A stretch of DNA of 64,000 bases, taken from assembly GCF_029227855.1 (NCBI RefSeq), contig NZ_CP074356.1. One strand, given 5' to 3'. Position 1 is the first letter of the stretch, and every line of letters starts with the position of its first letter. Origin of the DNA: Escherichia coli (GTDB taxonomy: Bacteria > Pseudomonadota > Gammaproteobacteria > Enterobacterales > Enterobacteriaceae). Of this stretch, positions 409 to 37,750 are shown one piece after another. The notes under the pieces were generated by a model. That model made no database searches and was not told where the DNA came from. It was given only the letters and a program-made list of their open reading frames with translations. Made by a program: the position numbers and the translations under genes.

Positions 409-1220
409 CCGAATCAGTAGCCCGTTTGCGTGGCGAACAGTTAACCCTCGGATATGGCAAATATACCGTTGCGGAAAATCTGACTGTAGAAATTCCTGAT
501 GGTCACTTCACGGCAATTATCGGGCCAAATGGCTGCGGTAAATCCACGTTACTGCGTACTTTAAGCCGCCTGATGACGCCTGCTCACGGGCATGTCTGGC
601 TGGATGGTGAGCACATTCAACATTACGCCAGTAAAGAGGTTGCACGCCGGATTGGCCTGTTGGCGCAAAATGCTACCACGCCGGGCGATATCACCGTGCA
701 GGAGCTGGTGGCGCGTGGACGTTACCCGCATCAACCGCTGTTTACCCGCTGGCGCAAAGAGGATGAAGAAGCGGTAACGAAAGCGATGCAGGCCACGGGA
801 ATCACTCATCTGGCAGATCAAAGCGTGGATACCCTTTCTGGCGGACAACGCCAGCGAGCGTGGATAGCAATGGTGCTGGCCCAGGAAACGGCAATTATGC
901 TGCTCGATGAACCAACGACCTGGCTGGATATCAGTCATCAGATTGATTTGCTGGAACTGTTAAGCGAACTGAACCGCGAGAAAGGCTATACCCTGGCGGC
1001 GGTGCTGCACGATCTTAATCAGGCCTGTCGTTACGCCAGCCATTTGATTGCATTGCGGGAAGGGAAAATTGTTGCTCAGGGAGCGCCGAAAGAGATTGTC
1101 ACTGCTGAATTGATCGAGCGCATTTATGGTCTGCGCTGCATGATAATTGACGATCCGGTTGCCGGAACGCCGCTCGTGGTGCCGCTCGGACGAACGGCAC
1201 CTTCAACCGCAAATAGTTAA
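405..1220 (+). CDS. fepC: Ferric enterobactin ABC transporter ATP-binding protein FepC
   Basis: Translation MTESVARLRGEQL... with Walker A GPNGCGKST and ABC signature LSGGQRQR; the ORF-track start at 264 is an upstream extension, ATG at 405 overlaps the fepG stop. Confidence 0.93.
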   Translation: MTESVARLRGEQLTLGYGKYTVAENLTVEIPDGHFTAIIGPNGCGKSTLLRTLSRLMTPAHGHVWLDGEHIQHYASKEVARRIGLLAQNATTPGDITVQELVARGRYPHQPLFTRWRKEDEEAVTKAMQATGITHLADQSVDTLSGGQRQRAWIAMVLAQETAIMLLDEPTTWLDISHQIDLLELLSELNREKGYTLAAVLHDLNQACRYASHLIALREGKIVAQGAPKEIVTAELIERIYGLRCMIIDDPVAGTPLVVPLGRTAPSTANS

Positions 1221-2350: not shown

Positions 2351-2520
2351 GGGGTATAACCTGAAAATGAGTCCAATAGGGGGAAATCTCCACGGCGCTC
2401 ACTTTACCAGTTGGTGAGAATTATCCGAAGCTGAAGTTTGTAAATTCCTTCCACTGAATGCAACATTCACTCTATTTAAGAGAAATATCCACCAAATCCA
2501 TAAATTAAATAAATGATAAA

Positions 2521-2550
2521 CCCATAATTATTTCCTGTAATTATGGGTTT
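2521..2550 (-). terminator. Candidate Rho-independent terminator downstream of entF
   Basis: Perfect 10-bp inverted repeat cccataatta/taattatggg with 7-nt loop; on the minus strand it is followed by a T-rich run, about 20 bp past the entF stop. Confidence 0.45.
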
Positions 2551-2565
2551 ATCGATAATATTAAT

Positions 2566-5500
2566 TTACCTGTTTAGCGTAGCGCGAATAATCGGCCCAA
2601 TTTTTTCAAACGCCCCTGGAGAGATAATATCCACATGCGCACAATCCTGACGATAGATATCCAGCTCCGCAATCCACGGCGACCAGGCGCGTTCGGGATT
2701 CATACCTTCCTGAAGCGTGCGTTCAGCAACAAACAGCGTCGCTTTACCGTCAAACGGTACACTATGAGCAGTCGTCAGCAGGCGCACAGCATCAGCGTAG
2801 TTGCCTTCAATGGTGGTAAACAACTCCGTTGAAGTACTTCCCTGCTGTGCCGCCAGGAAGGCCTCGCGCTCGCGGTTAATCTCCGCCAGCACTTCCGGGT
2901 CCAGGCCATTAGCCTCTTTTTCCTGCCAGTTTTGCGTTTCTGGCGGCCAGGTATCCAGCAAGCCAAAAAATGCCACCTGTTCGCCACGGGCACGCAGCCG
3001 CGCCGCAATACCCTGCGCCAGCGTACCGCCCAGCGAATAACCCAGCAGGTAATAAGGGCCGTGCGGTTGATGCTCAAGTAACGTTGCCAGATGCGCTTCG
3101 CAGACTTCATCCAGATTTGCCGCGGTCTGCATGGGGCCATTGGGGCGCGGCGACTGAATGCCGATAATCGACCATTGTGGATCGAGATAACGCGAGAGCA
3201 CGCTGAACTGCCAGGCAAAACCGGACGCAGGATGGAAACAAAACAGCGTCGGGCCATTACCTTCACGCAACGGCAGAATGGTTTCGAATCCCATGCGCCG
3301 GGAGCTGTCTTCTTCACCATCAATAATCGTTGCCAGTTTGGCGACAGTTGACGCGACCATCACCTGCCCCGGCGTCACCTGGCGGGTAAACTGCCGACTT
3401 AACTGCGCAGCCAGTTTCATTGCCAGTAGCGAATGACCGCCAAGCGCGAAGAAATCAGCATCGGCATCCTGCACGTCACAACCCAGCAACGACGAGAATG
3501 CCGCGGCGATAATCGTTTCACTGCCCGCTTTCGGCGCACGCCCCGGCGCTTGTGCCTTCAGTTCAGGCAACGGTAAGGCTTTGCGATCCAGCTTGCCGTT
3601 GGCGCTAAGCGGCAACTGCGGAAGTTGCAGCAGAACCACGGGCACCATATGCGGTGGCAATGTTTCGCGCAACTGCGCCTGCAATGCAGTGGTATCCAAC
3701 GGCAGGCCTGATTGCGACACCAGATACCCAACCAACTGACGCGCATCGCCTCCCGTTGCGGCAGCCTGGTTAATAACGCAGGCGTGGGTCACGGCCTGTT
3801 CAACGTCCGGCAGCGCCTGCATCACGCGGTCGATTTCGCCCAGTTCGATACGCTGCCCGCGAATTTTTAGCTGATCGTCACTGCGCCCGAGGTACTCCAC
3901 CGCGCCGTTATCCAGCCAGCGGGCAACGTCTCCGGTACGGTACATCCGTTCACCTGGGGCAAAAGGATCGGCAATAAAGCGGCTGGCGGTCAGATCGGGG
4001 CGTCCGAGATAGCCCTGCGCCAGTTGTATGCCAGTGAGATAGAGATCACCCGCCACACCTGGCGGCACCGGATGCATCATCGCATCAAGAATACGCAGGC
4101 CCGTATTCCACACCGGATAACCAATCGGCACACTACTGCCGCGCACCTGTGCCAGTTCCTCGCCAAAAGCCGGATACCAGCTGACATCTACCGCCGCTTC
4201 CGTCGGGCCATATAGATTATGCAACGGCACGCTGGTTAACTGTTGCCATTCGCGGCATAAATCAGCGGGTAAGGCCTCACCACTACAGAAAACCTGTTTC
4301 AACGTCGCGCAATTCTGGCGAGCGGTTTGCGGCGTCAGCGATGCAACAAATGCCGCCAGCATCGACGGCACAAAGTGCGTAGTCGTTACGCCATATTCGG
4401 CAAAGAATTGCTGCATAGCGAGCGGGTCGCGGTGCGCTTCCGGTTCAGCCATCACCAGTTTAGCCCCGGCAATAAACGGCCAGAAAAACTCCCACACCGA
4501 GACATCAAAACTGCACGGCGTTTTTTGGGCAACGACATCTTCGCCTGTAAGCGGGTAGTGGTTTTGCATCCAAAGCAGGCGGTTAACGATAGCCGTCTGC
4601 CCGACCATTACCCCTTTCGGCCTGCCGGTGGAGCCAGAGGTAAAGATGATATAAGCCGTGTGGTGCGGTTGTGAAAGTTTCAGCGGCGCACTGCCCTGCG
4701 GTGTAAGCGGGGCGTTATAGCAAAGGCTGGTTAAATCTGGAACATCGGCAAAGCGCGGCAGTTGATCGTCGGTGGTGATTAACAGCGACGGACGCGCATC
4801 TTCCAGCATCATTTTCAGGCGATCGTCCGGATAGCCGGTATCCAGCGGTAACCAGGCCGCACCAGCCTCAACAATTGCATGTAGCGCCAGAGTCAAAAAG
4901 ACCGAGCGCGGTAGCGCCACCGCCACGCTGTCGCCTGGTTTAACGCCGCGCTCACGCAGCAGATTCGCCAGCGCCACCACCTGCTCGCGCATTTCCCGAT
5001 AGCTAAACTGGTAACTCGCATCAACCAGCGCCGGAGCATGCGGTGTTTTTGCCGCTTGTTCTGCCACCAGCGCGCTCAGCGTGGTTTCTGGAATCTCAAC
5101 CTGAGTGGCGTTGATCTGCGCCAGCTGCACATATTCACCTGGCAGCATAATATCGACATCGCCGCACAACAGCGCCGGATCCGCGGCGAACTGGGCAATC
5201 AGCATTTTCAGGCGTTCAGCATGCTGGATTAACGTTGGCTCATCGTAACGCTGTTTATTGGCGAGGATCTCAATACTCAAATCACCGTGTTCATCCGGGA
5301 ACAGGGCCAGTTCAAGGTCATTAACCGGACCGGTTGCCAGGGTATGGGTTTGCGTCTGAACACCAGGAATATCCAGTTGGTAATCAAATACCTTGATATT
5401 GAGTACCGGACCGAACAGCGGTTCCTCTCCTGCCGCTCGCCCGCTGTCACGGACAATTTGTTCGGCATCGTAACGTTGATAACGACGCATTTTTTTCAGT

Positions 5501-6447
5501 TGTGCTGCCAGTCGGGTTGCCAGTTCCGGCAGCGTTTCTTGTGCCGCAATGTGAATCCCCAACGGCAAAACGTTGAGCACGGGTCCGGTAGCCGTCAGCG
5601 CCGCCGAGCCCAGTCGACGCATAAAGATAAATCCGGCGGCGTAGTCCATGCGATTGCACAATCGCCCCAGCCACAAGGCTGCCAACGCAAGTGCTAAATC
5701 GGTACGCTGCACACCTGAAAGTTGCGTAGCCAGCTGGCGGAATTCCCCGTCGGTAAACTCCAGTTTCAGGCGCAGAATATCTGCCGAGACGCTGCGCCCC
5801 GGTAAAGGTGCCGGAGAAAGTGACGCGGGCGGCGGCAGTTGACGACGCTGTTCCGTCCAGAATGCCGCATCACGCTGCCAGGCTTCGCTTTCGCGGTATT
5901 GCTGGTACTCTTCCACGACATCAGCGAAAGGCGTAAACGGCGAAGCAGGCGTTGGTTCGCCACGCAGCCATGCGCAGTAAATATTGGCGATCTGGCGGGT
6001 AATGGCCGGGAAACTGAAGCCATCGACCAGCAAATGGTGATAACGCTGATACCAGTACCAGCGGTTATCTGCCACCTGAATGAGCTGATGAAAGACCAGC
6101 GGTTTGCCGCTGTCGGCACGTAGATTTTGCTGTAAATCCGCCTGCATTAATGCCCGCGCAGTACCGTGCGGATCAATGTTGGTTCGCAGGTCGATAATTT
6201 CTGGCAGTTCGAACGTCAGCGCATCATCGACCCACTGCCAGACTTCGCCGTTATCTTCCGTAAAACGCATCCGCAGCGTATCTGCTTGCGCTATTCCGGC
6301 AACCACCGCGCGGGCCAGTAGTGGCGCATCAACCTCTCCGGTTAACTCAACGTAATGCGCCACGCTCCAGGCGGAGGGTAAATCCGACAGTTTTTCTGCC
6401 ATCCAGATGCCGGGCTGTGCGGCGACCAAAGGTAAATGCTGGCTCAT
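2566..6447 (-). CDS. entF: Enterobactin nonribosomal peptide synthetase EntF (C-A-PCP-TE)
   Basis: 1293-aa ORF; adenylation motifs (FTSGSTGRPKG), PCP serine (GGHSLLAMK), thioesterase GYSLGG; matches remembered EntF length and N-terminus MSQHLPLVAAQPGIW. Confidence 0.96.
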   Translation of the reverse strand: MSQHLPLVAAQPGIWMAEKLSDLPSAWSVAHYVELTGEVDAPLLARAVVAGIAQADTLRMRFTEDNGEVWQWVDDALTFELPEIIDLRTNIDPHGTARALMQADLQQNLRADSGKPLVFHQLIQVADNRWYWYQRYHHLLVDGFSFPAITRQIANIYCAWLRGEPTPASPFTPFADVVEEYQQYRESEAWQRDAAFWTEQRRQLPPPASLSPAPLPGRSVSADILRLKLEFTDGEFRQLATQLSGVQRTDLALALAALWLGRLCNRMDYAAGFIFMRRLGSAALTATGPVLNVLPLGIHIAAQETLPELATRLAAQLKKMRRYQRYDAEQIVRDSGRAAGEEPLFGPVLNIKVFDYQLDIPGVQTQTHTLATGPVNDLELALFPDEHGDLSIEILANKQRYDEPTLIQHAERLKMLIAQFAADPALLCGDVDIMLPGEYVQLAQINATQVEIPETTLSALVAEQAAKTPHAPALVDASYQFSYREMREQVVALANLLRERGVKPGDSVAVALPRSVFLTLALHAIVEAGAAWLPLDTGYPDDRLKMMLEDARPSLLITTDDQLPRFADVPDLTSLCYNAPLTPQGSAPLKLSQPHHTAYIIFTSGSTGRPKGVMVGQTAIVNRLLWMQNHYPLTGEDVVAQKTPCSFDVSVWEFFWPFIAGAKLVMAEPEAHRDPLAMQQFFAEYGVTTTHFVPSMLAAFVASLTPQTARQNCATLKQVFCSGEALPADLCREWQQLTSVPLHNLYGPTEAAVDVSWYPAFGEELAQVRGSSVPIGYPVWNTGLRILDAMMHPVPPGVAGDLYLTGIQLAQGYLGRPDLTASRFIADPFAPGERMYRTGDVARWLDNGAVEYLGRSDDQLKIRGQRIELGEIDRVMQALPDVEQAVTHACVINQAAATGGDARQLVGYLVSQSGLPLDTTALQAQLRETLPPHMVPVVLLQLPQLPLSANGKLDRKALPLPELKAQAPGRAPKAGSETIIAAAFSSLLGCDVQDADADFFALGGHSLLAMKLAAQLSRQFTRQVTPGQVMVASTVAKLATIIDGEEDSSRRMGFETILPLREGNGPTLFCFHPASGFAWQFSVLSRYLDPQWSIIGIQSPRPNGPMQTAANLDEVCEAHLATLLEHQPHGPYYLLGYSLGGTLAQGIAARLRARGEQVAFFGLLDTWPPETQNWQEKEANGLDPEVLAEINREREAFLAAQQGSTSTELFTTIEGNYADAVRLLTTAHSVPFDGKATLFVAERTLQEGMNPERAWSPWIAELDIYRQDCAHVDIISPGAFEKIGPIIRATLNR

Positions 6448-6662
6448 TGTGCCTCCTGCAACTGGGTGAAATTCGCCGGTGTCAGAGTACGCCAGTGGGC
6501 TTCAAGCCACTGCTGGCAGGACGCCTGTGACTGCGGCTGACACACAACGACCCAGCCTGCCGGTAAGGCGCATTGTTGCGGCCACAGACTGAATTGCCCC
6601 TGCGCATTGCGCAAAATGTTAAACGCTCCCTGCGGATCATCGAAGGGATTACTGAATGCCAT
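6444..6662 (-). CDS. ybdZ: MbtH-like protein YbdZ
   Basis: 72-aa product MAFSNPFDDPQGAF...SLWPQ...; ATG at 6660-6662 (the ORF track begins two codons upstream at a TTG); 4-bp overlap with the entF start. Confidence 0.88.
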   Translation of the reverse strand: MAFSNPFDDPQGAFNILRNAQGQFSLWPQQCALPAGWVVVCQPQSQASCQQWLEAHWRTLTPANFTQLQEAQ

Positions 6663-6664
6663 AT

Positions 6665-7867
6665 TCAACTCCTGTCATGGAAAAGTGGTTGCCAGAGGTC
6701 GATTAGCCCCTGCATCAAGCCACCGCGCCAACAAAGCGCATCATGTCCGCCGTCAACCTGACGCCAGAAAATGGATTCTTTTATGGGGTGTAATTGCGCA
6801 TACAGCGCCTGATTGGCCCGCATGATCATCGGCTCGCGAATACCCGCTTCCAGCATAATGCGCAGACCTTCGGCGCTAACTTCACCAGCTTTAAGTTGCT
6901 CAAGTAAAACACCTTCTTGCTGCCCGCCCCGATGAGGCCACCAGTACGATCCTGACTGGCTTAATACACAGCCAAAGCGTTCAGGCCAGTGCAGTCCGGC
7001 ATACAGCGCGGAAAGTCCACCAAAACTCTGCCCGGCGACCACGGTGCGATCGGCGCGATCGCTAAAAGGGGCAATAGCTTTCACCAGGGGTAATAACTCT
7101 TGCTGTACTGCCAGCCAGAAATCCGCATTACACGGCAGTTCGTGGGCGCGGTGCGTGGTGTCAATAGCGTCGATCAACACATACACGGCGGGAGGAAGTT
7201 GCTGACGATGGGTCAACGAAGTCAGCACAGGCCAGACAGGCATACTCTGCGCCCAAAATTCGCCATCGAGCAAAACTGCCAGCGGGCGTTCTCCTGCTGT
7301 TGCATCGCCGGTGGTAAAAATCCATACACGGCGTGAATTTTTCAACCGCTCACTTTTCCAGATAATTTCTTTGGCAGGCGTTTCTGGCGCTTGCGGACAA
7401 TCCCATCCCGGTTGTAGGGGCGCTTGCGGCATTTCGAGTGCAGAAACAGCGTGCCCTCGCCCGCCTTTCCAGCTTTGTGGATTCAGCGGATCGGCTATCG
7501 CCTGGGGCAATAGTTTTCGCCAGCCTTCACGTAATTCGAGGCGATCGGGGGATGGTGCAGAAAAAATGTCATCGCGTTCGGTGGGAATAAAACAGTAGCT
7601 GCCGCGCCAGTTGGCATTAAGTTGTGTCGTCCACTGCCAGACGTTGGTACCTGCAATTCGCTGCATCGACTGGGGCTGGCTGTTCTGATGGTGATCGGTC
7701 ACACCAGTGATGTAGACCCATACGCGCTTTATCGTCGAGTATTCTTCAGAACCTTGGGGATCACGCCACCAGAAAGTGACCTCAAACATTTCGTCATTCA
7801 GACGCTGCCATTCCGGGCCATGTTTCGACTGCCACCAGCTCTCACTTCCTACTTTTAACGCCGTCAC
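6665..7867 (-). CDS. fes: Enterochelin esterase Fes
   Basis: 400-aa ORF MTALKVGSESWWQSKHGPEWQRL... with esterase GQSFGG motif; the first codon appears to be GTG. Confidence 0.93.
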   Translation of the reverse strand: MTALKVGSESWWQSKHGPEWQRLNDEMFEVTFWWRDPQGSEEYSTIKRVWVYITGVTDHHQNSQPQSMQRIAGTNVWQWTTQLNANWRGSYCFIPTERDDIFSAPSPDRLELREGWRKLLPQAIADPLNPQSWKGGRGHAVSALEMPQAPLQPGWDCPQAPETPAKEIIWKSERLKNSRRVWIFTTGDATAGERPLAVLLDGEFWAQSMPVWPVLTSLTHRQQLPPAVYVLIDAIDTTHRAHELPCNADFWLAVQQELLPLVKAIAPFSDRADRTVVAGQSFGGLSALYAGLHWPERFGCVLSQSGSYWWPHRGGQQEGVLLEQLKAGEVSAEGLRIMLEAGIREPMIMRANQALYAQLHPIKESIFWRQVDGGHDALCWRGGLMQGLIDLWQPLFHDRS

Positions 7868-7916
7868 ACCATAACCCCATGTTTACTGTGAAATTTTTCA
7901 TTGATTGCAGAAATAT

Positions 7917-7939
7917 ATTGATAATATTATTGATAACTA
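7917..7939. promoter_or_regulatory. Fur box-like site in the fes-fepA divergent promoter region
   Basis: attgataatattattgataacta contains GATAAT-type hexamer repeats resembling the Fur consensus; located between divergent iron-regulated genes. Confidence 0.55.
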
Positions 7940-8109
7940 TTTGCATTTGCAATAGCGTAATGGCGCGCCGTGGGAAGCGCGGACATTAATTAACCAACTG
8001 CACTGCGTGTCTTTCAGGATCAAAGGTTTTCGCGGTAGCGGGATGCGTCGTGTTGATGACGACCATGCCCGACAGTTGCAATTCGTGGCAAAAATGCAGG
8101 AATAAAACA

Positions 8110-10389: not shown

Positions 10390-10487
10390 GCCGGATGCGG
10401 CGTGAACGCCTTATCCGGCCTACAAAAATCTTGCCAATTCAATATATTGCAGGACCACGTAGGCCTGATAAGCGTAGCGCATCAGGC
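10390..10487. repeat. REP/BIME elements (two REP palindromes) between fepA and entD
   Basis: gccggatgcggcgtgaacgccttatccggcctac and gtaggcctgataagcgtagcgcatcaggc are typical E. coli REP sequences. Confidence 0.8.
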
Positions 10488-11164: not shown

Positions 11165-11635
11165 TTCGCCCGCAGCCATTACTGACCGCGGGCGAAAGTG
11201 TAAAGCAGGTGCCTTACCATCCTGACCTGACAACCGGATATGCGGGGATTGCTCCCCGCACAACGGCTACTTCTTCGGTTCGTAAGCGAGAACAGCCTTA
11301 AACTCAATATTACGTTCCTTCACCGTAAACTCACACAGCGAGTCGCGGACCAGAAGCGTAAATCCCAGCACCGTTAAACACAGCACTATGACTGCCACAA
11401 GGGCATATTTCGTCAGCATGTTTATATTGCCTCCATGCGAAGAAGGGACTACCATCCGAGTTGTTCAGGTTTGGGTAGGTAGCCCCAGGGTTGATAGAAA
11501 TATCGTCCTGGGGCTTCATCTTTCCAGACCTCAGAGTTAACCTGAAACCGGAAAGCTTCAGGCACCCGCCGTTATCTTACCCTTCCTCAGCAAAATAGCT
11601 GTTTATTTATACAGTGAATCCTGTTTCGGACTTCT
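11165..11635. repeat. Tandem repeat unit 1 carrying a hok/sok-type type I toxin-antitoxin locus
   Basis: About 470 bp that realigns with 11670-12137 at roughly 95% identity by eye; contains hok copy 1. Confidence 0.85.
11267..11419 (-). CDS. hokE: Hok-family small membrane toxin (HokE-like), copy 1
   Basis: 50-aa product [50 protein letters not shown]; an overlapping mok-frame ORF is present (11331..11519). Confidence 0.85.
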
Positions 11636-11669
11636 GTTGGCAAAACTGATCATTGCCCTTAAAACGACA

Positions 11670-12137
11670 TCGCCCGCAGCCATTGCTGACCGCGGGCGAA
11701 AGTGTAAAGCAGGTGCCTTACCACCCTGACCTGACAACCGGATATGCGGGGATTACTCCCCGCACAACGGCTACTTCTTCGGTTCGTAAGCGAGAACAGC
11801 CTTAAACTCAATATTACGTTCCTTCACCGTAAACTCACACAGCGAGTCTCCGACCAGAAGCGTAAATCCCAGTACCGTCAAACACAGCACTATGACTGCC
11901 ACAAGGGCATATTTCGTCAGCATGTTTATATTGCCTCCATGCGAAGAAGGGACTACCATCCAAATTGTCTGGTTTGGAGTGGCAGCCCCAGGGTTGATAG
12001 AAATATCTCCTGGGGCTTCATCTTTCCAGACCTCAGAGTAAACCTGAAACCGGAAAGCTTCAGGCACCCGCCGTTATCTTACCCTTCCTCAGCAAAATGG
12101 CTGTTTATTTATACAGTGAGTCCTGTTTCGGACTTCT
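11670..12137. repeat. Tandem repeat unit 2 carrying a second hok/sok-type locus
   Basis: Direct repeat of 11165-11635 with scattered substitutions. Confidence 0.85.
11771..11923 (-). CDS. Hok-family small membrane toxin, copy 2
   Basis: 50-aa product identical to copy 1 except G for R at the LLV(G/R)DSL position. Confidence 0.8.
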
Positions 12138-16442: not shown

Positions 16443-16901
16443 TTACTTACGGCCCGTAAACGGGCTGCCCGGATAGGGAATCGATAACTGCTCTCCCATT
16501 TTATCCTCTTCAAGCTGGTGCTTTATGTAATCCTGTATCTTCGCCGTGTTCTTACCCACTGTATCGACGTAGTACCCTCTGCACCAGAACTCCCTGTTCC
16601 TGTATTTGAATTTCAAATCACCAAACTGCTCGTAAAGCATCAGACTGCTTTTCCCTTTCAGATATCCCATAAACCCGGATACGCTCATTTTGGGCGGGAT
16701 CTCCACAAGCATATGGATATGATCTGCACAGCATTCAGCTTCCAGAATCCGTACGCTTTTCCACTCACACAGCTTTCTCAAAATACTGCCTATTGCTCTA
16801 CGCTTCTCTCTGTAGAACACCTGTCTTCGGTATTTTGGCGCAAAAACTATGTGATATTTACAGTTCCATCGGGTGTGCGCTAAGCTCTTTTCGTTCCCCA
16901 T
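16443..16901 (-). CDS. tnpA: IS200 transposase TnpA (HUH Y1 transposase)
   Basis: Product MGNEKSLAHTRWNCKYHIVFAPKYRRQVFY...HIHMLVEIPPKMSVS...; HxH motif and catalytic Tyr context. Confidence 0.9.
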   Translation of the reverse strand: MGNEKSLAHTRWNCKYHIVFAPKYRRQVFYREKRRAIGSILRKLCEWKSVRILEAECCADHIHMLVEIPPKMSVSGFMGYLKGKSSLMLYEQFGDLKFKYRNREFWCRGYYVDTVGKNTAKIQDYIKHQLEEDKMGEQLSIPYPGSPFTGRK

Positions 16902-17043
16902 TGGGACCCCCTTTTGATTTCTTGTTTGACACTTGCAGTTGCCAGACCGCAAAGTGTTTTAACAAATCAAAAGGGGTTTTAATAACTGGCTCAAAGCTGA
17001 AAGCTTTCCGGAACCCCCAGCCTAGCTGGGGGTTTTCTGTGCA

Positions 17044-27734: not shown

Positions 27735-29636
27735 ATGTCAACCGGATTACGTTTCACACTGGAAGTGGACGGCCTGCCGCCGGATGCTTTTGCGGTGGTT
27801 TCCTTTCATCTGAACCAGTCACTCTCTTCGCTCTTTTCCCTCGATCTCTCCCTGGTCAGCCAGCAGTTTCTCTCCCTTGAATTTGCGCAGGTGCTGGACA
27901 AAATGGCCTACCTGACGATATGGCAGGGCGATGAAGTACAGCGCCGGGTGAAAGGCGTGGTGACCTGGTTTGAACTCGGGGAGAACGACAAAAACCAGAT
28001 GCTGTACAGCATGAAGGTGCACCCGCCGCTGTGGCGTGCCGGTCTGCGCCAGAACTTCCGTATCTTCCAGAACGAGGACATCAAAAGCATCCTCGGCACG
28101 ATGTTGCAGGAAAACGGGGTGACCGAATGGAGTCCGCTGTTCAGCGAGCCGCATCCTTCCCGTGAGTTTTGTGTCCAGTACGGTGAGACTGATTACGATT
28201 TCCTGTGCCGGATGGCGGCGGAGGAAGGCATCTTCTTTTATGAGGAGCATGCTTACAAAAGTACCGACCAGAGCCTGGTGCTGTGCGACACAGTCCGCCA
28301 TCTGCCCGAATCTTTTGAAATCCCATGGAACCCGAACACCCGTACCGAGGTGAGCACCCTCTGCATCAGCCAGTTCCGCTACAGCGCACAAATCCGCCCT
28401 TCTTCCGTGGTGACCAAAGACTACACCTTTAAACGCCCCGGCTGGGCCGGACGTTTTGAACAGGAAGGCCAGCACCAGGACTACCAGCGCACGCAGTATG
28501 AAGTGTATGACTACCCCGGACGTTTCAAGGGTGCCCACGGGCAGAACTTTGCCCGCTGGCAGATGGACGGCTGGCGAAACAATGCAGAAACCGCGCGGGG
28601 AATGAGTCGCTCGCCGGAGATATGGCCGGGACGACGAATTGTGCTGACGGGGCATCCGCAGGCGAACCTGAACCGGGAATGGCAGGTGGTGGCAAGTGAA
28701 CTGCACGGCGAACAGCCACAGGCGGTGCCAGGACGGCAGGGAGCGGGGACGGCGCTGGAGAACCATTTTGCGGTGATCCCGGCAGACAGAACATGGCGAC
28801 CACAGCCGTTGCTGAAACCGCTGGTCGACGGCCCGCAGAGCGCTGTCGTGACAGGACCGGCAGGCGAGGAAATCTTCTGCGACGAACATGGTCGCGTGCG
28901 GGTGAAGTTCAACTGGGACCGCTATAACCCGTCAAACCAGGACAGTTCGTGCTGGATCCGTGTGGCACAGGCGTGGGCAGGCACCGGTTTTGGCCACCTG
29001 GCGATACCGCGTGTGGGTCAGGAGGTGATTGTAGACTTCCTCAACGGCGATCCGGACCAGCCGATCATTATGGGGCGCACCTACCACCAGGAAAACCGCA
29101 CCCCCGGCAGCCTGCCGGGAACAAAGACGCAGATGACCATCCGCTCCAAAACGTACATGGGCAGCGGATTTAATGAGCTGAAGTTTGATGATGCGACAGG
29201 GAGAGAACAGGTCTACATCCACGCGCAGAAGAACATGGATACCGAAGTGCTCAACGACCGTACCACCACCGTAAAACACGATCACCACGAAACCGTAAAA
29301 AATGACCAGACGGTCACGATCCAGGAAGGTAACCGCCTTCTTACGGTGGAAAAAGGCCACAAGATCACCGGAGTACTGAAAGGGTCTTTATCTGAGGATG
29401 TCTTTCAGGACAGAGGCACGATTGCCGGTTCGGTGCATGTTGACGCTGTAAACAATGGTGGCGAAGGCGACGGTATACAGGCTTATACGGCGATTAAGGA
29501 AATTTTGCTGGCCGTGGAGGAAAGCAAAATTGCGCTGACGCCGGATGGCATTCAGCTACAGGTCGGGGAATCGACGGTAATCAGGCTGTCGAAGGATGGC
29601 ATCACCATCGTGGGCGGTTCTGTTTTCATCAACTGA
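27735..29636 (+). CDS. vgrG: Type VI secretion spike protein VgrG (Rhs-element Vgr protein)
   Basis: 633-aa ORF MSTGLRFTLEVDGLPPDAFAVVSFHLNQSLSSLFSLDLSL...; gp27/gp5-like organisation, immediately upstream of Eag/PAAR-Rhs genes. Confidence 0.88.
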   Translation: MSTGLRFTLEVDGLPPDAFAVVSFHLNQSLSSLFSLDLSLVSQQFLSLEFAQVLDKMAYLTIWQGDEVQRRVKGVVTWFELGENDKNQMLYSMKVHPPLWRAGLRQNFRIFQNEDIKSILGTMLQENGVTEWSPLFSEPHPSREFCVQYGETDYDFLCRMAAEEGIFFYEEHAYKSTDQSLVLCDTVRHLPESFEIPWNPNTRTEVSTLCISQFRYSAQIRPSSVVTKDYTFKRPGWAGRFEQEGQHQDYQRTQYEVYDYPGRFKGAHGQNFARWQMDGWRNNAETARGMSRSPEIWPGRRIVLTGHPQANLNREWQVVASELHGEQPQAVPGRQGAGTALENHFAVIPADRTWRPQPLLKPLVDGPQSAVVTGPAGEEIFCDEHGRVRVKFNWDRYNPSNQDSSCWIRVAQAWAGTGFGHLAIPRVGQEVIVDFLNGDPDQPIIMGRTYHQENRTPGSLPGTKTQMTIRSKTYMGSGFNELKFDDATGREQVYIHAQKNMDTEVLNDRTTTVKHDHHETVKNDQTVTIQEGNRLLTVEKGHKITGVLKGSLSEDVFQDRGTIAGSVHVDAVNNGGEGDGIQAYTAIKEILLAVEESKIALTPDGIQLQVGESTVIRLSKDGITIVGGSVFIN

Positions 29637-29663
29637 TTCACTCAGATTATCAGGGAGTATTTT

Positions 29664-30125
29664 ATGCAGTTCACTTTTAATGAAGGCCACATTCAACTGC
29701 CGTCTCAATGGCAGGATCAGTCAATGCAGGTCCTGGTGTCCACAGATAACAGTGGCATCAACCTGGTCATTACCCGCGAAGCCGTTCCACAGGGAACCCT
29801 GACACCAGAGCTGTACCAGGAAACGCTGGCGCTGTACCAGGGCAAACTTGATGGGTACACCGAACATGCCTGCCGGGAAATCACTCTGGCAGAGGCCCCG
29901 GCCTGGCTGCTGGATTATTCCTGGAACGGTCCGGAAGATGAGGGGAATCAGGGGCGGATTAGCCAGATAGCCGTATTCCAGCGGCGTGGAGATACGCTGC
30001 TGACCTTCACTTTCAGCACCTCCTTATCCCTGAAGAACAGTCAAAAGACGATGCTGCTGGAGGTGATAAAGAGCTTCACCCCGTTGCCACCGGAGAATGA
30101 CATCCAAAAGGACCAGCCGCGCTGA
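29664..30125 (+). CDS. DUF1795/Eag-family T6SS effector chaperone (EagR-like)
   Basis: 153-aa ORF placed between vgrG and a prePAAR-Rhs gene, the canonical position of Eag chaperones; assignment from context and overall similarity, no HMM run. Confidence 0.7.
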   Translation: MQFTFNEGHIQLPSQWQDQSMQVLVSTDNSGINLVITREAVPQGTLTPELYQETLALYQGKLDGYTEHACREITLAEAPAWLLDYSWNGPEDEGNQGRISQIAVFQRRGDTLLTFTFSTSLSLKNSQKTMLLEVIKSFTPLPPENDIQKDQPR

Positions 30126-30144
30126 CATAAACGAGGGATAACAC

Positions 30145-33100
30145 ATGAGTGAAGGACCAGGCGGGCCACAGGGAGCGACCGCAGGCGGTACGCTGGCAAT
30201 GCGAATGCTGTCACAGCAGGCGATGGTCGCCAGCCAGATGAAACGGGCAGCCAACGACAAAGCCATTGCACAGATGCTGGCATCAAAAAAGTCCGGCCCC
30301 CCCGCCGCCAGGCTGGGCGATGAAATTCAGCACAAGAGTTTTTTGGGGGCGCTGGCAGGGGCCGTGCTGGGGGCGATAGTGACCATCGCAGAAGGTTGCC
30401 TGATTATGGCCGCCTGTGCCACCGGCCCTTATGCGCTGGTTCTGGTGCCTGCGCTGATGTATGCCAGCTATAAGGCGAGTGATTATGTGGAGGAGAAACA
30501 GAACCAGCTTGAATCATGGATAAACAGCTTTTGTGACACGGACGGCGCCATCAATACCGGTTCTGAAAATGTAAACATTAACGGAAAGCCCGCTGCCAGG
30601 GCCGCCGTCACCCTTCCCCCTCCTCCCCCACCTGGAGCAATACCTGAAATCCCACAGGGGGAACCCTCATGGGGTGATATTGCCACTGACCTGCTTGAAT
30701 CGGCAGCGGAAAAAGCAGTACCACTGGCGAAGGCCTGGGGGAACGCTGTTATCACCCTGACGGACAGCAATGCCGGTTTTATGGATCGCGTCAGCGCCGG
30801 CGCATCGCTTCTGTTTCCCGCCGGTCCGGTATTAATGGAGTTTGCCACCATGGTGGGCGGGCGTGGCGAAATCAAAAAAGATGTGGATTTCCCGGAAGCC
30901 GGTGAGGACACGGCGCTCTGCGACAAGGAGAACAAACCACCGAGGATAGCCCAGGGCAGCAGCAACGTCTTTATCAACAATCAGCCCGCCGCGCGCAAGG
31001 GCGACAAACTGGAGTGCAGCGCGGCAATCGTGGAAGGTTCGCCGGACGTCTTTATTGGCGGTGAACAGGTGACCTATCTGGATATCCAGCCAGAGTTCCC
31101 GCCGTGGCAGAGAATGATCCTGGGGGGAATAACGATAGCCAGCTATCTTCTGCCGCCAGCGGGACTGCTGGGAAAACTGAAGAATCTGGCGAGACTCGGC
31201 AAACTGGGGAACCTGCTGGGGAAAAGCGGGAAGCTGCTGGGGGCAAAGCTCGGCGCGTTGCTGGGAAAAACAGATAAGTCGTTAAAAAGTATTGCCAATA
31301 AAGTCATCAGATGGGTAACAGATCCTGTCGATCCGGTAACCGGCGCGTACTGCGACGAACGTACCGACTTTACGCTGGGCCAGACCCTCCCCCTCTCCTT
31401 CACCCGTTTCCACAGTTCTGTACTGCCGCTGCATGGCCTGACCGGCGTGGGCTGGAGCGACTCCTGGAGCGAATACGCCTGGGTGCGTGAACAGGGAAAC
31501 CGGGTGGATATCATCAGCCAGGGAGCCACGCTGAACTTCGCCTTCGACGGTGACAGTGATACGGCGGTTAACCCGTATCACGCCCAGTACATTCTGCGCC
31601 GCCGCGATGATTATCTGGAGCTGTTCGACAGGGATGCACTGAGCAGCCGCTTCTTTTATGACGCCTTTCCGGGAATGCGTCTGCGCCACCCGGTGACTGA
31701 CGATACCAGCGATGACCGCCTGGCACACAGCCCCAATGACCGGATGTACATGCTGGGCGGGATGAGCGACACCGCCAGCAACCGCATCACGTTTGAGCGC
31801 GACAGCCAGTACCGGATCACAGGTGTCAGTCACACCGACGGGATCCGGCTTAAACTGACGTACCACGCCAGCGGCTACCTGAAAGCCATTCACCGCACGG
31901 ATAACGGCATACAGACGCTGGCGACCTACGAACAGGATGCGCGGGGGCGGCTGACAGAAGCGGATGCGCGGCTGGACTACCACCTGTTTTATGAGTACGA
32001 CGCTGCGGACCGGATCATCCGCTGGTCCGATAACGACCAGACGTGGAGCCGTTTCACCTACGATGAACAGGGCCGGTGCGTGAATGTCACCGGGGCGGAG
32101 GGCTATTACAACGCCACGCTGGACTATGGTGACGGCTGCACCACCGTGACGGACGGCAAGGGCATTCACCGTTATTACTATGATCCTGACGGCAATATTC
32201 TGCGGGAAGCAGCGCCGGACGGCAGCACCACCACGTATGAATGGGATGAATTCCATCACCTGCTGGCCCGTCACTCCCCTGCCGGGCGGGTGGAGAAATT
32301 TGAATACAACGCCGCACACGGTCAGTTAAGCCGTTACACGGCGGCAGACGGCGCGGAGTGGCAGTACCGCTATGATGAGCGCGGCCTGCTCAGCAACATC
32401 ACCGACCCTGCCGGGCAGACGTGGACACAGCAGTGTGATGAACGCGGCCTGCCGGTAAGTCTGGTGTCGCCACAGGGCGAAGAGACCCGGCTGGCATACA
32501 CCGCTCAGGGGCTGCTGTCGGGAATATTCCGCCAGGATGAACGGCGTCTGGGCATAGAGTACGACCACCACAACCGGCCGGAAACACTCACCGACGTGAT
32601 GGGCCGTGAACACCACACCGAATACAGCGGTCACGACCTGCCGGTGAAGATGCGCGGCCCCGGCGGTCAGTCAGTGCGGTTGCAGTGGCAGCAGCACCAT
32701 AAACTGAGTGGCCTTGAGCGCACTGGCACCGGCGCGGAAGGGTTCAGCTATGACCGCCACGGCAACCTGCTGGCCTGGACGGACGGCAATGGTGTTGTCT
32801 GGACAATGGAGTACGGCCCGTTCGATTTGCCGGTGGCGCGAACGGACGGTGAAGGCCACCGCTGGCAGTACCGCTATGATAAAGACACGCTGCAACTGAC
32901 AGAAGTCATTAACCCGCAGGGTGAGTCATATCTTTATGTTCTGGATAACTGCGGCCGGGTGACGGAAGAGCATGACTGGGGCGGCGTGGTCTGGCGTTAC
33001 CGCTATGACGCCGATGGCCTGTGTACCGCCAGGGTCAACGGCCTGGAGGAAACCATCCTCTACAGCCGGGACGACGCAGGCCGCCTGGCAGAAGTCATCA

Positions 33101-34974
33101 CGCCGGAAGGCAAAACGCAGTATGCGTATGACAAATCCGGCAGGCTGACGGGTATCTTCAGCCCGGACGGCACATCACAGCGCACCGGCTATGACGAACG
33201 CGGGCGGGTGAATGTCACCACTCAGGGCCGACGGGCCATTGAATACCACTACCCCGATGAACACACCGTCATCCGCTGTATCCTGCCACCGGAAGATGAA
33301 CGCGACAGACACCCCGGTGAATCCCTGCTGAAAACCACGTACCGCTACAACGCAGCCGGAGAACTGGCAGAGGTCATCCTGCCGGAGGATGAGACGCTGA
33401 CGTTCAGCCGTGATGAGGCAGGACGTGAAGTGCTCCGGCACAGTAACCGGGGTTTTGCCTGTGAGCAGGGCTGGAATGCAGCCGGTCAGCTTACCAGCCA
33501 GCGCGCCGGACTTTTCCCGGCAGAAGCCACATGGGGCGGGCTGCTCCCCTCACTGGTACGGGAGTACCGTTACGACAGCGCGGGCAATGTGTCGGCTGTC
33601 ACCAGCCGGGAAGATTACGGACGGGAAACTCGCCGGGAGTACCGGCTGGACCGGAACGGCCAGGTCACGGCGGTGACAGCCTCAGGCACCGGGCTGGGCT
33701 ATGGCGAAGGCGATGAGTCCTATGGCTATGACAGTTGTGGCTACCTGAAGGCGCAGTCTGCGGGCAGGCACCGGATAAGTGAAGAGACTGAGCGGTATGC
33801 CGGAGGCCACCGGCTGAAACAGGCCGGAAACACGCAGTATGACTATGACGCCGCAGGCCGGATGGTCAGCCGCACCAGACACCGTAACGGCTATCGCCCG
33901 GAAACAGAGCGGTTCCGGTGGGACAGCCGGGACCAGCTGACCGGGTATTGCAGCGCACAGGGTGAACAGTGGGAATACCGCCACGACGCCAGCGGCAGAC
34001 GGACGGAAAAACGCTGCGACCGGAAGAAAATCCGCTTCACGTACCTGTGGGACGGCGACAGTATTGCGGAAATCCGGGAATACCGCGATGATAAACTGTA
34101 CAGCGTAAGGCACCTGGTGTTTAACGGCTTTGAGCTGATAAGCCAGCAGTTTAGCCGGGTACGGCAGCCGCACCCGTCCGTGGCCCCGCAGTGGGTGACG
34201 CGGACGAATCATGCGGTGAGCGATCTGACGGGCCGTCCGCTGATGCTCTTTAACAGTGAAGGTAAAACCGTCTGGCGACCGGGACAGACCAGCCTGTGGG
34301 GGCTGGCACTCAGCCTGCCCGCGGACACCGGCTACCCGGACCCGCGCGGGGAACTGGACGCGGAAGCCGACCCCGGCCTGCTGTATGCAGGACAGTGGCA
34401 GGATGCGGAATCCGGGCTGTGCTATAACCGGTTCCGGTATTACGAGCCGGAAACAGGGATGTACCTGGTGAGTGATCCGCTGGGGTTGCTGGGGGGTGAG
34501 CAGACTTACCGGTATGTGCCGAATCCGTGTGGGTATGTTGATCCTTTGGGATTAGCAACATGTCCCATAATCAGACAACGGGTGCTGGCTAACCTTGAAG
34601 CCAGTCGGGCAGCAAGGGCTGCATCTAATTTTGGTAAGAAAAATATCTATGATTTTATCAAGGCAACTCAATCTGCTATCCCTGGCACCTCTATCCCAAA
34701 ATCTTTTGAGATTATAACTGCTAATGGTACTTTCTGGGTACACCCAAATGCTACAAAACATATGGCTGAATATTTGACTCGGAACGGTCTCTCACATTCA
34801 ACTTCTGTAGAGAGCCAAATAATGTTAACAAGTTTTCACGAAGCTGTAAGTTTGGCTAGTGCTCAAGGTATAAAGTATGAAGAAATGATGAATGTTGGCG
34901 GCTGGGAACTAGTATTTAGTCAAGCTAAATCTGACTCGGCTTTATCAGTTATTAAACATGCTCTTTATAAATGA
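30145..34974 (+). CDS. prePAAR/PAAR-domain Rhs polymorphic toxin (T6SS effector) with variable C-terminal toxin domain
   Basis: 1609 aa; prePAAR motif AARLGDEIQH near the N-terminus with hydrophobic helices; PAAR-like segment (GDKLECSAAIVEGSPDVFIGGE); many YD/RHS repeats; PxxxxDPxGL core-end motif (NPCGYVDPLGL) followed by about 150 aa of divergent C-terminus. Confidence 0.9.
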   Translation: MSEGPGGPQGATAGGTLAMRMLSQQAMVASQMKRAANDKAIAQMLASKKSGPPAARLGDEIQHKSFLGALAGAVLGAIVTIAEGCLIMAACATGPYALVLVPALMYASYKASDYVEEKQNQLESWINSFCDTDGAINTGSENVNINGKPAARAAVTLPPPPPPGAIPEIPQGEPSWGDIATDLLESAAEKAVPLAKAWGNAVITLTDSNAGFMDRVSAGASLLFPAGPVLMEFATMVGGRGEIKKDVDFPEAGEDTALCDKENKPPRIAQGSSNVFINNQPAARKGDKLECSAAIVEGSPDVFIGGEQVTYLDIQPEFPPWQRMILGGITIASYLLPPAGLLGKLKNLARLGKLGNLLGKSGKLLGAKLGALLGKTDKSLKSIANKVIRWVTDPVDPVTGAYCDERTDFTLGQTLPLSFTRFHSSVLPLHGLTGVGWSDSWSEYAWVREQGNRVDIISQGATLNFAFDGDSDTAVNPYHAQYILRRRDDYLELFDRDALSSRFFYDAFPGMRLRHPVTDDTSDDRLAHSPNDRMYMLGGMSDTASNRITFERDSQYRITGVSHTDGIRLKLTYHASGYLKAIHRTDNGIQTLATYEQDARGRLTEADARLDYHLFYEYDAADRIIRWSDNDQTWSRFTYDEQGRCVNVTGAEGYYNATLDYGDGCTTVTDGKGIHRYYYDPDGNILREAAPDGSTTTYEWDEFHHLLARHSPAGRVEKFEYNAAHGQLSRYTAADGAEWQYRYDERGLLSNITDPAGQTWTQQCDERGLPVSLVSPQGEETRLAYTAQGLLSGIFRQDERRLGIEYDHHNRPETLTDVMGREHHTEYSGHDLPVKMRGPGGQSVRLQWQQHHKLSGLERTGTGAEGFSYDRHGNLLAWTDGNGVVWTMEYGPFDLPVARTDGEGHRWQYRYDKDTLQLTEVINPQGESYLYVLDNCGRVTEEHDWGGVVWRYRYDADGLCTARVNGLEETILYSRDDAGRLAEVITPEGKTQYAYDKSGRLTGIFSPDGTSQRTGYDERGRVNVTTQGRRAIEYHYPDEHTVIRCILPPEDERDRHPGESLLKTTYRYNAAGELAEVILPEDETLTFSRDEAGREVLRHSNRGFACEQGWNAAGQLTSQRAGLFPAEATWGGLLPSLVREYRYDSAGNVSAVTSREDYGRETRREYRLDRNGQVTAVTASGTGLGYGEGDESYGYDSCGYLKAQSAGRHRISEETERYAGGHRLKQAGNTQYDYDAAGRMVSRTRHRNGYRPETERFRWDSRDQLTGYCSAQGEQWEYRHDASGRRTEKRCDRKKIRFTYLWDGDSIAEIREYRDDKLYSVRHLVFNGFELISQQFSRVRQPHPSVAPQWVTRTNHAVSDLTGRPLMLFNSEGKTVWRPGQTSLWGLALSLPADTGYPDPRGELDAEADPGLLYAGQWQDAESGLCYNRFRYYEPETGMYLVSDPLGLLGGEQTYRYVPNPCGYVDPLGLATCPIIRQRVLANLEASRAARAASNFGKKNIYDFIKATQSAIPGTSIPKSFEIITANGTFWVHPNATKHMAEYLTRNGLSHSTSVESQIMLTSFHEAVSLASAQGIKYEEMMNVGGWELVFSQAKSDSALSVIKHALYK

Positions 34975-35504
34975 CGATTATGCTTACATTAGAAAATGAA
35001 ACAAACTACAAAGATGTTGTTGTTAATATAGATGAATTTGTACCTTTTGATATAACTTTTGGAAAGGGGAGCGAACAGTGTTTGTACTGGAGAGGCGGCA
35101 ATGGTAAAAGTTCTTTGGTTGAAGTTGGGTTAAATATGTACAGCGGAGAAGTAAGTAACATCACACTAGCAAATATCGATTCAGGTGAAATTAACATTAC
35201 AGATGAGATGTTAGCCAACAACCTTCCTGAAATACAAGGGTCTGTTATATTTCAGACAAGCGAGTGGCTTAATAAAGACATTTCCGAATACTCAAACAGA
35301 TTTATTGATGATTTTGATTGCAATATCAAGTTAATAATTGGTAGTAATTACATTAAATTATTATTTAAAAAAGCAACAAATCCCATTTGTTATATCATTA
35401 ATAGGAATATAAGATTTGGTTTTTCTTTGAGTAGGGAACTTTCGACATTGGAAATATTAGACCTCAATCAAGAAAAATTAGATATTCTAAAGTTATTTAA
35501 ATAG
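34971..35504 (+). CDS. Putative cognate immunity protein for the Rhs C-terminal toxin
   Basis: 177-aa ORF whose ATG overlaps the rhs stop (ATGA); markedly AT-rich; position typical of rhsI genes. Confidence 0.7.
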   Translation: MTIMLTLENETNYKDVVVNIDEFVPFDITFGKGSEQCLYWRGGNGKSSLVEVGLNMYSGEVSNITLANIDSGEINITDEMLANNLPEIQGSVIFQTSEWLNKDISEYSNRFIDDFDCNIKLIIGSNYIKLLFKKATNPICYIINRNIRFGFSLSRELSTLEILDLNQEKLDILKLFK

Positions 35505-37613: not shown

Positions 37614-37750
37614 CAGGGAAAGATCACGTAACGCTGCTTTTTTGTACTAAATAATTCGCACTAAATGTTCAATAATTGAGATATTCCTTATTACCTAAAT
37701 ACAGTTCCACCAAGATTACCTAAACCCAAATGAGGTAAAAGATAGTGGGT

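What the first reader, a model, noticed from the sequence alone, without database searches (positions are those of the whole stretch)
6444..6662. MbtH-like ybdZ translationally coupled to entF
The 72-aa MbtH-like ORF ends with TGA overlapping the entF ATG (ATGA), consistent with stoichiometric co-expression of the MbtH partner with the NRPS adenylation domain.
Basis: partly seen in the sequence, partly recalled or inferred. Interest (0 to 1): 0.25.

Follow-up and report, generated by a model that had tools for sequence, protein, structure and literature searches.

The report
Known E. coli ybdZ–entF gene overlap
This is the already annotated and well-studied E. coli gene ybdZ, a small MbtH-like helper protein for the enterobactin synthetase EntF, and its 4-base ATGA overlap with entF is real but ordinary for bacterial operons.

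Summary
On the minus strand, a 72-aa ORF (6662..6444) ends in a TGA that shares three bases with the entF ATG, giving ATGA at 6447..6444. The ORF passes the Pfam MbtH model (E=3.6e-21) and is 93% identical to YbdZ in the solved EntF–YbdZ complex, PDB 5JA1.

The window differs at 4 of 64,000 bases from E. coli JNEC-KY178. RefSeq annotates fes, ybdZ and entF at exactly these coordinates, and K-12 MG1655 has the same layout. This is the published Fur-regulated fes-ybdZ-entF-fepE operon.

- The ATGA overlap is common. 4 of the 40 same-strand gene pairs in this window have it.
- entF has its own strong Shine-Dalgarno (AGGAGG) in unstructured RNA, so it could initiate independently.
- In 38 other Enterobacteriaceae species the ybdZ–entF distance is always small (−8 to +10 nt), but the exact geometry varies: −4 in 22, −8 in 7, +1 in 1, +9/+10 in 8.

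Close linkage therefore looks selected, but the ATGA itself does not. Neither dependence of entF translation on ybdZ translation nor 1:1 output has been shown, here or in any paper I found. Verdict: already known, low interest.

The parts
6444..6662 (-). ybdZ CDS, 72 aa, a stand-alone MbtH-like protein that partners the EntF adenylation domain
   Evidence: Translation. Pfam PF03621 E=3.6e-21. PDB 5JA1_B YbdZ E=3.7e-44, 67/72 residues identical. RefSeq annotation at identical coordinates.
6444..6447 (-). ATGA: the entF start codon ATG (6447-6445) overlapping the ybdZ stop codon TGA (6446-6444)
   Evidence: Read directly from the sequence. Same in K-12. Found in 22 of 38 orthologous loci, 21 as ATGA and 1 as GTGA.
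6452..6457 (-). Shine-Dalgarno AGGAGG for entF, lying inside the last codons of ybdZ (..Q E A Q*) and 4 nt upstream of the entF ATG
   Evidence: Sequence. Duplex energy with the 16S anti-SD is -10.3 kcal/mol, against a coding background median of -2.6 with 1% of 20-mers at or below -8.
2566..6447 (-). entF CDS, 1293 aa, the enterobactin NRPS termination module (C-A-PCP-TE)
   Evidence: Pfam Condensation, AMP-binding, PP-binding and Thioesterase domains. NCBIfam NF007605 equivalog 2798.5 bits, cut-off 2400. RefSeq annotation.
6665..7867 (-). fes CDS, 400 aa, enterochelin esterase and first gene of the operon. Its TGA (6667-6665) lies 2 nt before the ybdZ ATG.
   Evidence: Pfam Enterochelin_N plus Esterase. 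NCBIfam NF007758, 706 bits. Sequence. RefSeq annotation.
6669..6673 (-). Shine-Dalgarno AGGAG for ybdZ, inside the 3' end of fes and 6 nt upstream of the ybdZ ATG
   Evidence: Sequence. -6.9 kcal/mol against the anti-SD. A GGAG core is conserved in all 38 orthologues.
7908..7950 (.). AT-rich stretch with GATAAT / ATTATT / GATAAC hexamers in the fes-fepA divergent intergenic region. This is the likely Fur operator of the operon's promoter.
   Evidence: Best match to the 19-bp Fur consensus has only 13 of 19 positions, so it is weak by that measure. Fur regulation of fes-ybdZ-entF-fepE is taken from the literature (PMC4145685; PMC8910356) and was not tested here.
2515..2553 (-). 16-bp-stem hairpin followed by a T-rich tail, just downstream of the entF stop and before fepE. 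Possible partial terminator.
   Evidence: Terminator-like hit. The published mRNA fold-change falls off along the operon (-5.04, -4.96, -3.10, -1.69 for fes, ybdZ, entF, fepE; PMC8910356). Any link between the two is inference.

Best explanation
The window carries the canonical Escherichia coli enterobactin operon fes-ybdZ-entF-fepE on its minus strand. ybdZ encodes a 72-aa MbtH-like protein. According to the literature on the K-12/BL21 orthologue, this protein binds the adenylation domain of EntF 1:1, enhances EntF solubility and catalytic activity, and is required for enterobactin production. The three genes fes, ybdZ and entF are packed head to tail, with a 2-nt gap and then a 4-nt ATGA overlap. 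Each downstream start has a Shine-Dalgarno embedded in the end of the preceding gene. Shown here: gene identity, geometry, Shine-Dalgarno sites, lack of occluding RNA structure, and conservation of tight spacing across 38 species. Inferred: ribosomes terminating ybdZ are released on top of the entF start and can re-initiate there. Fresh 30S subunits probably also initiate at the strong AGGAGG, so the two proteins are made from the same mRNA, at the same time and place. The overlap guarantees co-expression. It does not by itself set a 1:1 ratio.
For: Sequence and translations. MbtH Pfam hit E=3.6e-21 and EntF/Fes equivalog hits. 5JA1_B YbdZ E=3.7e-44. The 701-nt query spanning the locus (window 6200-6900) matches 5414 of 5426 complete E. 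coli genomes, and the features annotated under the listed hits are fes, ybdZ and entF. The window has 4 mismatches in 64 kb against NZ_AP045174.1, with identical CDS coordinates. K-12 has the same geometry. In 38 of 38 species loci a full EntF orthologue starts -8 to +10 nt from the YbdZ stop, with fes upstream. SD strength at entF starts has a median of -8.4 kcal/mol against -2.6 for the coding background. Literature: operon and Fur regulation, 1:1 stoichiometry and ybdZ requirement, complex structure.
Against: Nothing contradicts the identity. Against obligatory coupling or a ratio set by the overlap: entF has an independent strong SD. The junction RNA is slightly less structured than shuffles (z=+1.15; 177 of 200 shuffles fold at least as well), so nothing has to be unmasked by upstream translation. 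The -4 overlap is shared by 10% of same-strand pairs in this window, including pairs with no known stoichiometric relationship. The geometry changed several times among genera. No experimental test was found.
Confidence: 0.9

Rival explanations
1. The ATGA overlap is only operon compaction and has no regulatory role. entF is translated essentially by independent initiation at its own AGGAGG Shine-Dalgarno. The YbdZ:EntF ratio is set by the two initiation rates, not by coupling.
For: entF has a strong SD (-10.3 kcal/mol). The junction is unstructured. The -4 overlap is the commonest overlap class in the window, 4 of 40 pairs. The exact geometry is not conserved: -4, -8, +1 and +9/+10 all occur.
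Against: Spacing stays within -8..+10 nt in all 38 species loci despite several changes of geometry and YbdZ identity down to 57%. Only 11 of 40 same-strand pairs in the window are that close. This suggests constraint on proximity, although the species are phylogenetically related and are not independent samples.
Confidence: 0.35
2. Coupling works by structure unmasking. The entF ribosome-binding site is sequestered in an mRNA hairpin that only ribosomes translating ybdZ can open, so entF translation depends strictly on ybdZ translation.
For: This is a known mechanism for some coupled pairs (general knowledge). Nothing specific here supports it.
Against: Folding 101 nt around the junction gives -24.5 kcal/mol against a shuffle mean of -28.1 (z=+1.15). 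177 of 200 shuffles fold at least as well.
Confidence: 0.04
3. The 72-aa ORF is a chance ORF or is not an MbtH-like protein.
For: None.
Against: Pfam score is 74.8 bits against a cut-off of 27. It is 93% identical to the crystallised YbdZ. It is conserved with intact W27, W37, W52, W57, P28, P34 and G36 in 39 sequences. It is annotated in RefSeq and in K-12.
Confidence: 0.01

Closest known systems
E. coli K-12 YbdZ (b4511) in the fes-ybdZ-entF-fepE operon; EntF-YbdZ complex PDB 5JA1
   Same: Same gene, length (72 aa), neighbours and junctions: a 2-nt gap after fes and a 4-nt ATGA overlap with entF. 67 of 72 residues are identical, and every residue invariant across the 39 aligned YbdZ sequences is retained.
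   Different: Five substitutions relative to K-12 (Y15N, V32A, D38V, I39V, T63A), all at positions that vary among orthologues. N15 and V38 are unique among the 39 sequences compared. Any functional consequence is untested.
MbtH-like proteins in general (MbtH, PA2412, CmnN/VioN, PacJ, TioT; Pfam PF03621)
   Same: A stand-alone protein of about 70 aa encoded in an NRPS cluster. It has the conserved Trp residues and the S-x-W-P and P-x-G-W motifs, and it binds an adenylation domain.
   Different: The YbdZ lineage has degenerate signature positions: Q instead of E in NxExQ, and WRTLTP instead of WTDxRP. The literature notes both for YbdZ (PMC7593251), and both are seen here.
Natural MLP-adenylation fusions (SlgN1 N-terminal MLP; ObiF1 C-terminal MLP)
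   Same: These achieve obligatory 1:1 co-production of an MLP and its adenylation domain.
   Different: Here the two are separate polypeptides with a stop and a restart. In EntF a condensation domain of about 450 aa precedes the adenylation domain.
Generic translationally coupled, 4-nt-overlapping operon gene pairs in E. coli (in this window: fepG-fepC, purE-purK, ylbF-ybcF)
   Same: Identical -4 spacing of stop and start on one strand.
   Different: Nothing distinctive. For the ybdZ-entF pair, dependence of downstream translation on upstream translation has not been demonstrated.

Membership tests
MbtH-like protein family (Pfam PF03621) | Sequence matches the family profile above the curated cut-off | tested here: met
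   74.8 bits against a cut-off of 27, E=3.6e-21, profile positions 2-52 of 53.
MbtH-like protein family (Pfam PF03621) | Small (about 70 aa) protein with the conserved tryptophans and the SxWP / PxGW motifs that form the Trp pocket | tested here: met
   72 aa with S25-L-W27-P28, P34-A-G36-W37, W52 and W57. W27, P28, P34, G36, W37, W52 and W57 are invariant in 39 orthologues. The Trp pocket is described in PMC10510592.
MbtH-like protein family (Pfam PF03621) | Encoded within or next to an NRPS gene cluster that has an adenylation domain | tested here: met
   Immediately upstream of entF, which has a C-A-PCP-TE architecture.
MbtH-like protein family (Pfam PF03621) | Physically binds the adenylation domain and enhances adenylation or solubility | not testable with these tools
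   Documented for the 93%-identical K-12/BL21 protein: the 5JA1 complex and the biochemistry summarised in PMC7593251. Not tested for this allele.
YbdZ orthologue group (enterobactin fes-ybdZ-entF context) | Conserved synteny: fes upstream and entF downstream, all on the same strand | tested here: met
   Window, K-12, and the species loci with enough flanking sequence.
Translationally coupled gene pair | Same transcript, with the downstream start overlapping or within a few nt of the upstream stop | tested here: met
   ATGA at 6447-6444. Operon membership is from the literature.
Translationally coupled gene pair | Translation of the downstream gene depends on translation of the upstream gene | not testable with these tools
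   Needs nonsense-mutant or reporter experiments. No published test was found.
Translationally coupled gene pair | Downstream RBS weak or occluded, so that independent initiation is inefficient. This is typical of strict coupling but is not obligatory. | tested here: not met
   Strong AGGAGG SD at -10.3 kcal/mol. The junction is unstructured, z=+1.15.
Translationally coupled gene pair | Juxtaposition conserved among orthologues | tested here: met
   38 of 38 loci lie within -8..+10 nt. The exact -4 spacing occurs in 22 of 38.

The most novel reading that the evidence does not exclude
The ybdZ-entF junction was rebuilt several times in Enterobacteriaceae (-4, -8, +1, +9/+10) but never loosened. 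This might reflect selection for cis, co-translational assembly. YbdZ would be finished on the same mRNA moments before the EntF adenylation domain emerges and would load onto the nascent NRPS. Under this reading, gene order and proximity would matter for EntF folding and activity, rather than just the protein ratio.
Probability: 0.15. Interest if true: 0.35.

Novelty: already known. Interest (0 to 1): 0.06.

Why it matters
It matters little as a discovery. ybdZ, its MbtH fold, its complex with EntF and its place in the Fur-regulated fes-ybdZ-entF-fepE operon are all annotated and published. The finding is useful mainly as a positive control showing that the first-stage reader recognises genes and junctions correctly.

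One modest open point remains. Nobody appears to have tested whether the tight ybdZ-entF junction actually couples translation or sets the MLP:NRPS ratio. That question has some practical relevance for heterologous NRPS expression, where MLP co-expression is often limiting.

Tried and rejected
- **Occluding RNA structure at the junction.** None found (z=+1.15), so the structure-unmasking model of coupling was rejected.
- **Rfam scan of the whole window.** No RNA family lies in or near 6444-6662, so a hidden RNA element was rejected.
- **19-bp Fur consensus, up to 3 mismatches.** No hits. A looser scan finds only a 13/19 match plus GATAAT-type hexamers at 7908-7950. Fur control is therefore taken from the literature, not from my scan.
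- **Promoter-like sites inside fes or ybdZ that could drive entF separately.** None on the minus strand between 6447 and 7867. The total number of promoter-like hits in the scanned region (7) is within the shuffle expectation (5.5 ± 2.6).
- **Published quantitative data on YbdZ versus EntF synthesis.** Searches for 'ybdZ' with 'translational coupling' or 'ribosome profiling', and for 'MbtH-like' with 'translationally coupled', gave nothing relevant. The supplements of PMC10746267 do not contain ybdZ.
- **Papers I could not read.** My guessed PMC id for Li et al. 2014 is not held, nor is my guessed id for Miller et al. 2016. Felnagle et al. 2010 (PMC2974439, id confirmed) is not held either. 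Their content is cited only through reviews.
- **The alternative 74-aa TTG start at 6668.** Rejected in favour of ATG 6662.
- **NCBIfam.** It has no model that hits YbdZ. That is a gap in the library, not evidence against the identification.

Full report
**1. Observation**

The feature lies on the minus strand. Read as reverse complement, the sequence around 6680-6440 is ...CCATGACAGGAGTTGAATATGGCATTC...CAGTTGCAGGAGGCACAATGAGCCAGCAT....

- ybdZ starts at ATG 6662-6660 and ends at TGA 6446-6444. It encodes 72 aa: MAFSNPFDDPQGAFNILRNAQGQFSLWPQQCALPAGWVVVCQPQSQASCQQWLEAHWRTLTPANFTQLQEAQ.
- The next ORF starts at ATG 6447-6445 and runs to 2566, encoding 1293 aa.
- Upstream, a 400-aa ORF (7867..6665) ends in TGA 6667-6665, only 2 nt before the ybdZ ATG.
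- The mechanical ORF list extends ybdZ to a TTG at 6668 (74 aa). The ATG is the supported start. AGGAG at 6673-6669 sits 6 nt before it, the N-terminus is conserved from that Met in orthologues, and RefSeq annotates 6444..6662.

**2. Identity**

- The 72-aa protein hits Pfam MbtH (PF03621) at 74.8 bits against a cut-off of 27, E=3.6e-21.
- Its best solved-structure match is 5JA1 chain B, 'Enterobactin biosynthesis protein YbdZ', at E=3.7e-44 with 67 of 72 residues identical. Other MbtH-like proteins follow.
- The downstream protein has Condensation, AMP-binding, PP-binding and Thioesterase domains. It passes the NCBIfam EntF equivalog (2798.5 bits, cut-off 2400).
- The upstream protein is enterochelin esterase Fes.
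- The 701-nt stretch 6200-6900 is found in 5414 of 5426 complete E. coli genomes, and the features under the listed hits are annotated fes / ybdZ / entF.
- The whole 64-kb window aligns without gaps to NZ_AP045174.1 (E. coli JNEC-KY178) 3573834-3637833 with 4 mismatches. The RefSeq annotation therefore transfers base for base: entF 2566..6447, ybdZ 6444..6662, fes 6665..7867, all minus strand.
- K-12 MG1655 has the same layout: fes, a 2-nt gap, ybdZ b4511, then a 4-nt overlap with entF b0586.
- No Rfam family lies in or near the region.

**3. What is known**

- The literature treats fes-ybdZ-entF-fepE as one Fur-regulated operon (PMC4145685; PMC8910356).
- MbtH-like proteins bind NRPS adenylation domains through a tryptophan pocket, co-purify with them, and raise substrate affinity. 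Some adenylation domains are active only with stoichiometric MLP (PMC10510592).
- A 1:1 MLP:A-domain stoichiometry is reported. Deleting ybdZ abolishes enterobactin production, although EntF remains soluble without it (PMC7593251, citing Felnagle 2010 and Schomer 2017/2018).
- EntF has been crystallised with YbdZ (5JA1).
- The primary papers (Felnagle 2010, Miller 2016) are not held in the library, so I cite them only through these secondary sources.

**4. Is the overlap special?**

No. From the RefSeq CDS table of the window, 4 of the 40 same-strand adjacent CDS pairs have exactly a -4 overlap: fepG-fepC, ybdZ-entF, purE-purK and ylbF-ybcF. Eleven of the 40 lie within -8..+10 nt. It is the standard compact junction of E. 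coli operons.

**5. Does it couple translation?**

Three tests bear on this.

(a) RNA structure. The 101 nt around the junction fold to -24.5 kcal/mol, against a shuffle mean of -28.1 (z=+1.15). 177 of 200 shuffles fold at least as well. Nothing occludes the entF start, so upstream ribosomes have nothing to melt.

(b) Shine-Dalgarno. entF has AGGAGG at 6457-6452, 4 nt upstream of its ATG and encoded within the last ybdZ codons (..CAG GAG GCA CAA TGA). Its duplex energy with the anti-SD is -10.3 kcal/mol. The background for 20-mers in coding sequence has a median of -2.6, and 1% reach -8 or lower. entF is therefore well equipped to initiate on its own.

(c) Comparative. A scan of one genome per species with YbdZ returned 39 loci. 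In the 38 that contain both genes, the YbdZ orthologue (57-92% identity) is followed by an EntF orthologue, full-length wherever the flanking sequence allows, and fes lies upstream wherever the flank reaches it. The stop-to-start distances were as follows:

| Distance | Loci | Notes |
|---|---|---|
| -4 | 22 | 21 ATGA, 1 GTGA. Escherichia, Citrobacter, Leclercia, Lelliottia, Silvania, several Enterobacter, Mangrovibacter |
| -8 (ATGAnTRA) | 7 | |
| +1 | 1 | |
| +9/+10 | 8 | The stop TAA or TGA runs straight into the entF Shine-Dalgarno (TAAGGAG or TGAGGAA) |

Nearly all of these loci have an SD-like element before entF (median -8.4 kcal/mol). The fes-ybdZ gap is 2 nt only in Escherichia and 10-30 nt elsewhere.

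My reading is that proximity of ybdZ and entF is maintained while the precise geometry drifts. This is what one expects if close linkage is favoured but ATGA itself is not the selected feature. Close linkage could mean co-expression, termination-reinitiation, or simply a lack of any spacer requirement. The species are related, so the 38 loci are not independent samples.

**6. Mechanism, with status of each step**

- Shown: gene identities, junction geometry, SD sites, an unstructured junction, and conserved tight spacing.
- From the literature: a single Fur-controlled transcript, a 1:1 YbdZ-EntF complex, and the requirement for YbdZ.
- Inferred: ribosomes finishing ybdZ terminate with the entF ATG in or next to the P/A sites, and a fraction re-initiate. 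Fresh 30S subunits also load at AGGAGG. YbdZ and EntF therefore appear together from the same mRNA.
- Not shown: that entF translation depends on ybdZ translation, or that the output ratio is about 1.

As general background from my own knowledge, not from a tool: overlapping start and stop codons do not by themselves equalise synthesis rates within operons. Proportional synthesis is usually attributed to tuned initiation rates.

**7. Comparison and membership**

The protein is a member of the MbtH-like family. Four checks support this: the profile score, its size, the Trp/SxWP/PxGW motifs, and the NRPS context. It is specifically the YbdZ orthologue.

It shows the known YbdZ peculiarities of Q for E in NxExQ and WRTLTP for WTDxRP. 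Binding and activation could not be tested here.

As a translationally coupled pair it meets the geometric and conservation criteria. The functional criterion is untestable with these tools. The optional criterion of a weak or occluded RBS is not met.

**8. Novelty and verdict**

This is already known. The functional gloss of translational coupling leading to stoichiometry is plausible but unproven, and the geometry it rests on is commonplace. Interest is low (0.06).

The most novel reading not excluded is that conserved proximity serves cis co-translational loading of YbdZ onto nascent EntF. I give this a probability of about 0.15 and modest interest.

**9. Side observations**

These are listed in the noticed-in-passing section of this report.

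Noticed in passing
window 6444-6662 (-): This ybdZ allele differs from K-12 at 8 nt, 5 of them amino-acid-changing (Y15N, V32A, D38V, I39V, T63A). For fes plus entF the figures are 42 aa changes for 181 nt differences (Fisher p=0.024). N15 and V38 are unique among 39 orthologues. Only 41 of 5414 E. coli genomes are at least 99% identical over 6200-6900. This could be relaxed or shifted constraint on the helper protein, or a small-number effect.
   Followed up: partly
window 2515-2553 (-): A long hairpin (16-bp stem, GATAAACCCATAATTACAGGAAATAATTATGGGTTTATC) with an A/T-rich tail lies 13 nt after the entF stop and about 165 nt before fepE. It may be a partial terminator. That would fit the weaker regulation of fepE than of fes, ybdZ and entF in published RNA data.
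   Followed up: no
window 1217-1220: fepC (+, ends 1220) and wzz(fepE) (-, ends 1217) are convergent, and their 3' ends overlap by 4 nt.
   Followed up: no
window 11267-12069: A tandem duplication of the hokE/sok type I toxin-antitoxin module. There are two hokE CDSs (11267-11419, 11771-11923), two sok RNAs (11411-11567, 11915-12069) and two degraded overlapping ORFs. In K-12 the region downstream of entD instead carries IS186.
   Followed up: no
window 10425-10466 (+): An Rfam ES036 (CssrF) sRNA hit just above the gathering score (42.2 against 37.6 bits), in the 174-nt fepA-entD spacer.
   Followed up: no
window 16443-17034 (-): An IS200C transposase gene with the adjacent STnc490 Hfq-binding RNA (144.6 bits), inserted between ybdG and pheP.
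   Followed up: no
window 27735-39673 (+): A type VI secretion vgr - DcrB-like - Rhs core gene. It is followed by a trail of orphan Rhs and PAAR fragments and small ORFs (putative immunity or toxin-tip cassettes), then an ISAs1 transposase at 39790-40926.
   Followed up: no
L007 (NZ_GG670150.1, 223 nt): A 223-nt scaffold filed under Lactobacillus johnsonii ATCC 33200 encodes an E. coli-type YbdZ (91% aa identity to the query) with an Escherichia-type ATGA junction into entF. It is almost certainly E. coli contamination of that assembly.
   Followed up: no
L028 (CACSKA010000002.1) vs L029: A 647-kb contig labelled Chryseobacterium sp. 18061 carries an enterobacterial fes-ybdZ-entF locus. Its junction and identities closely match Citrobacter sp. 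18056 from the same project. A sample mislabel or mix-up is likely.
   Followed up: no
L039 (LR590464.1, Leclercia adecarboxylata NCTC13032) 5210 onward: The entF ORF stops after 662 aa, although tblastn similarity to EntF continues to residue 1284. This is a frameshift, a pseudogene or a sequencing error.
   Followed up: no
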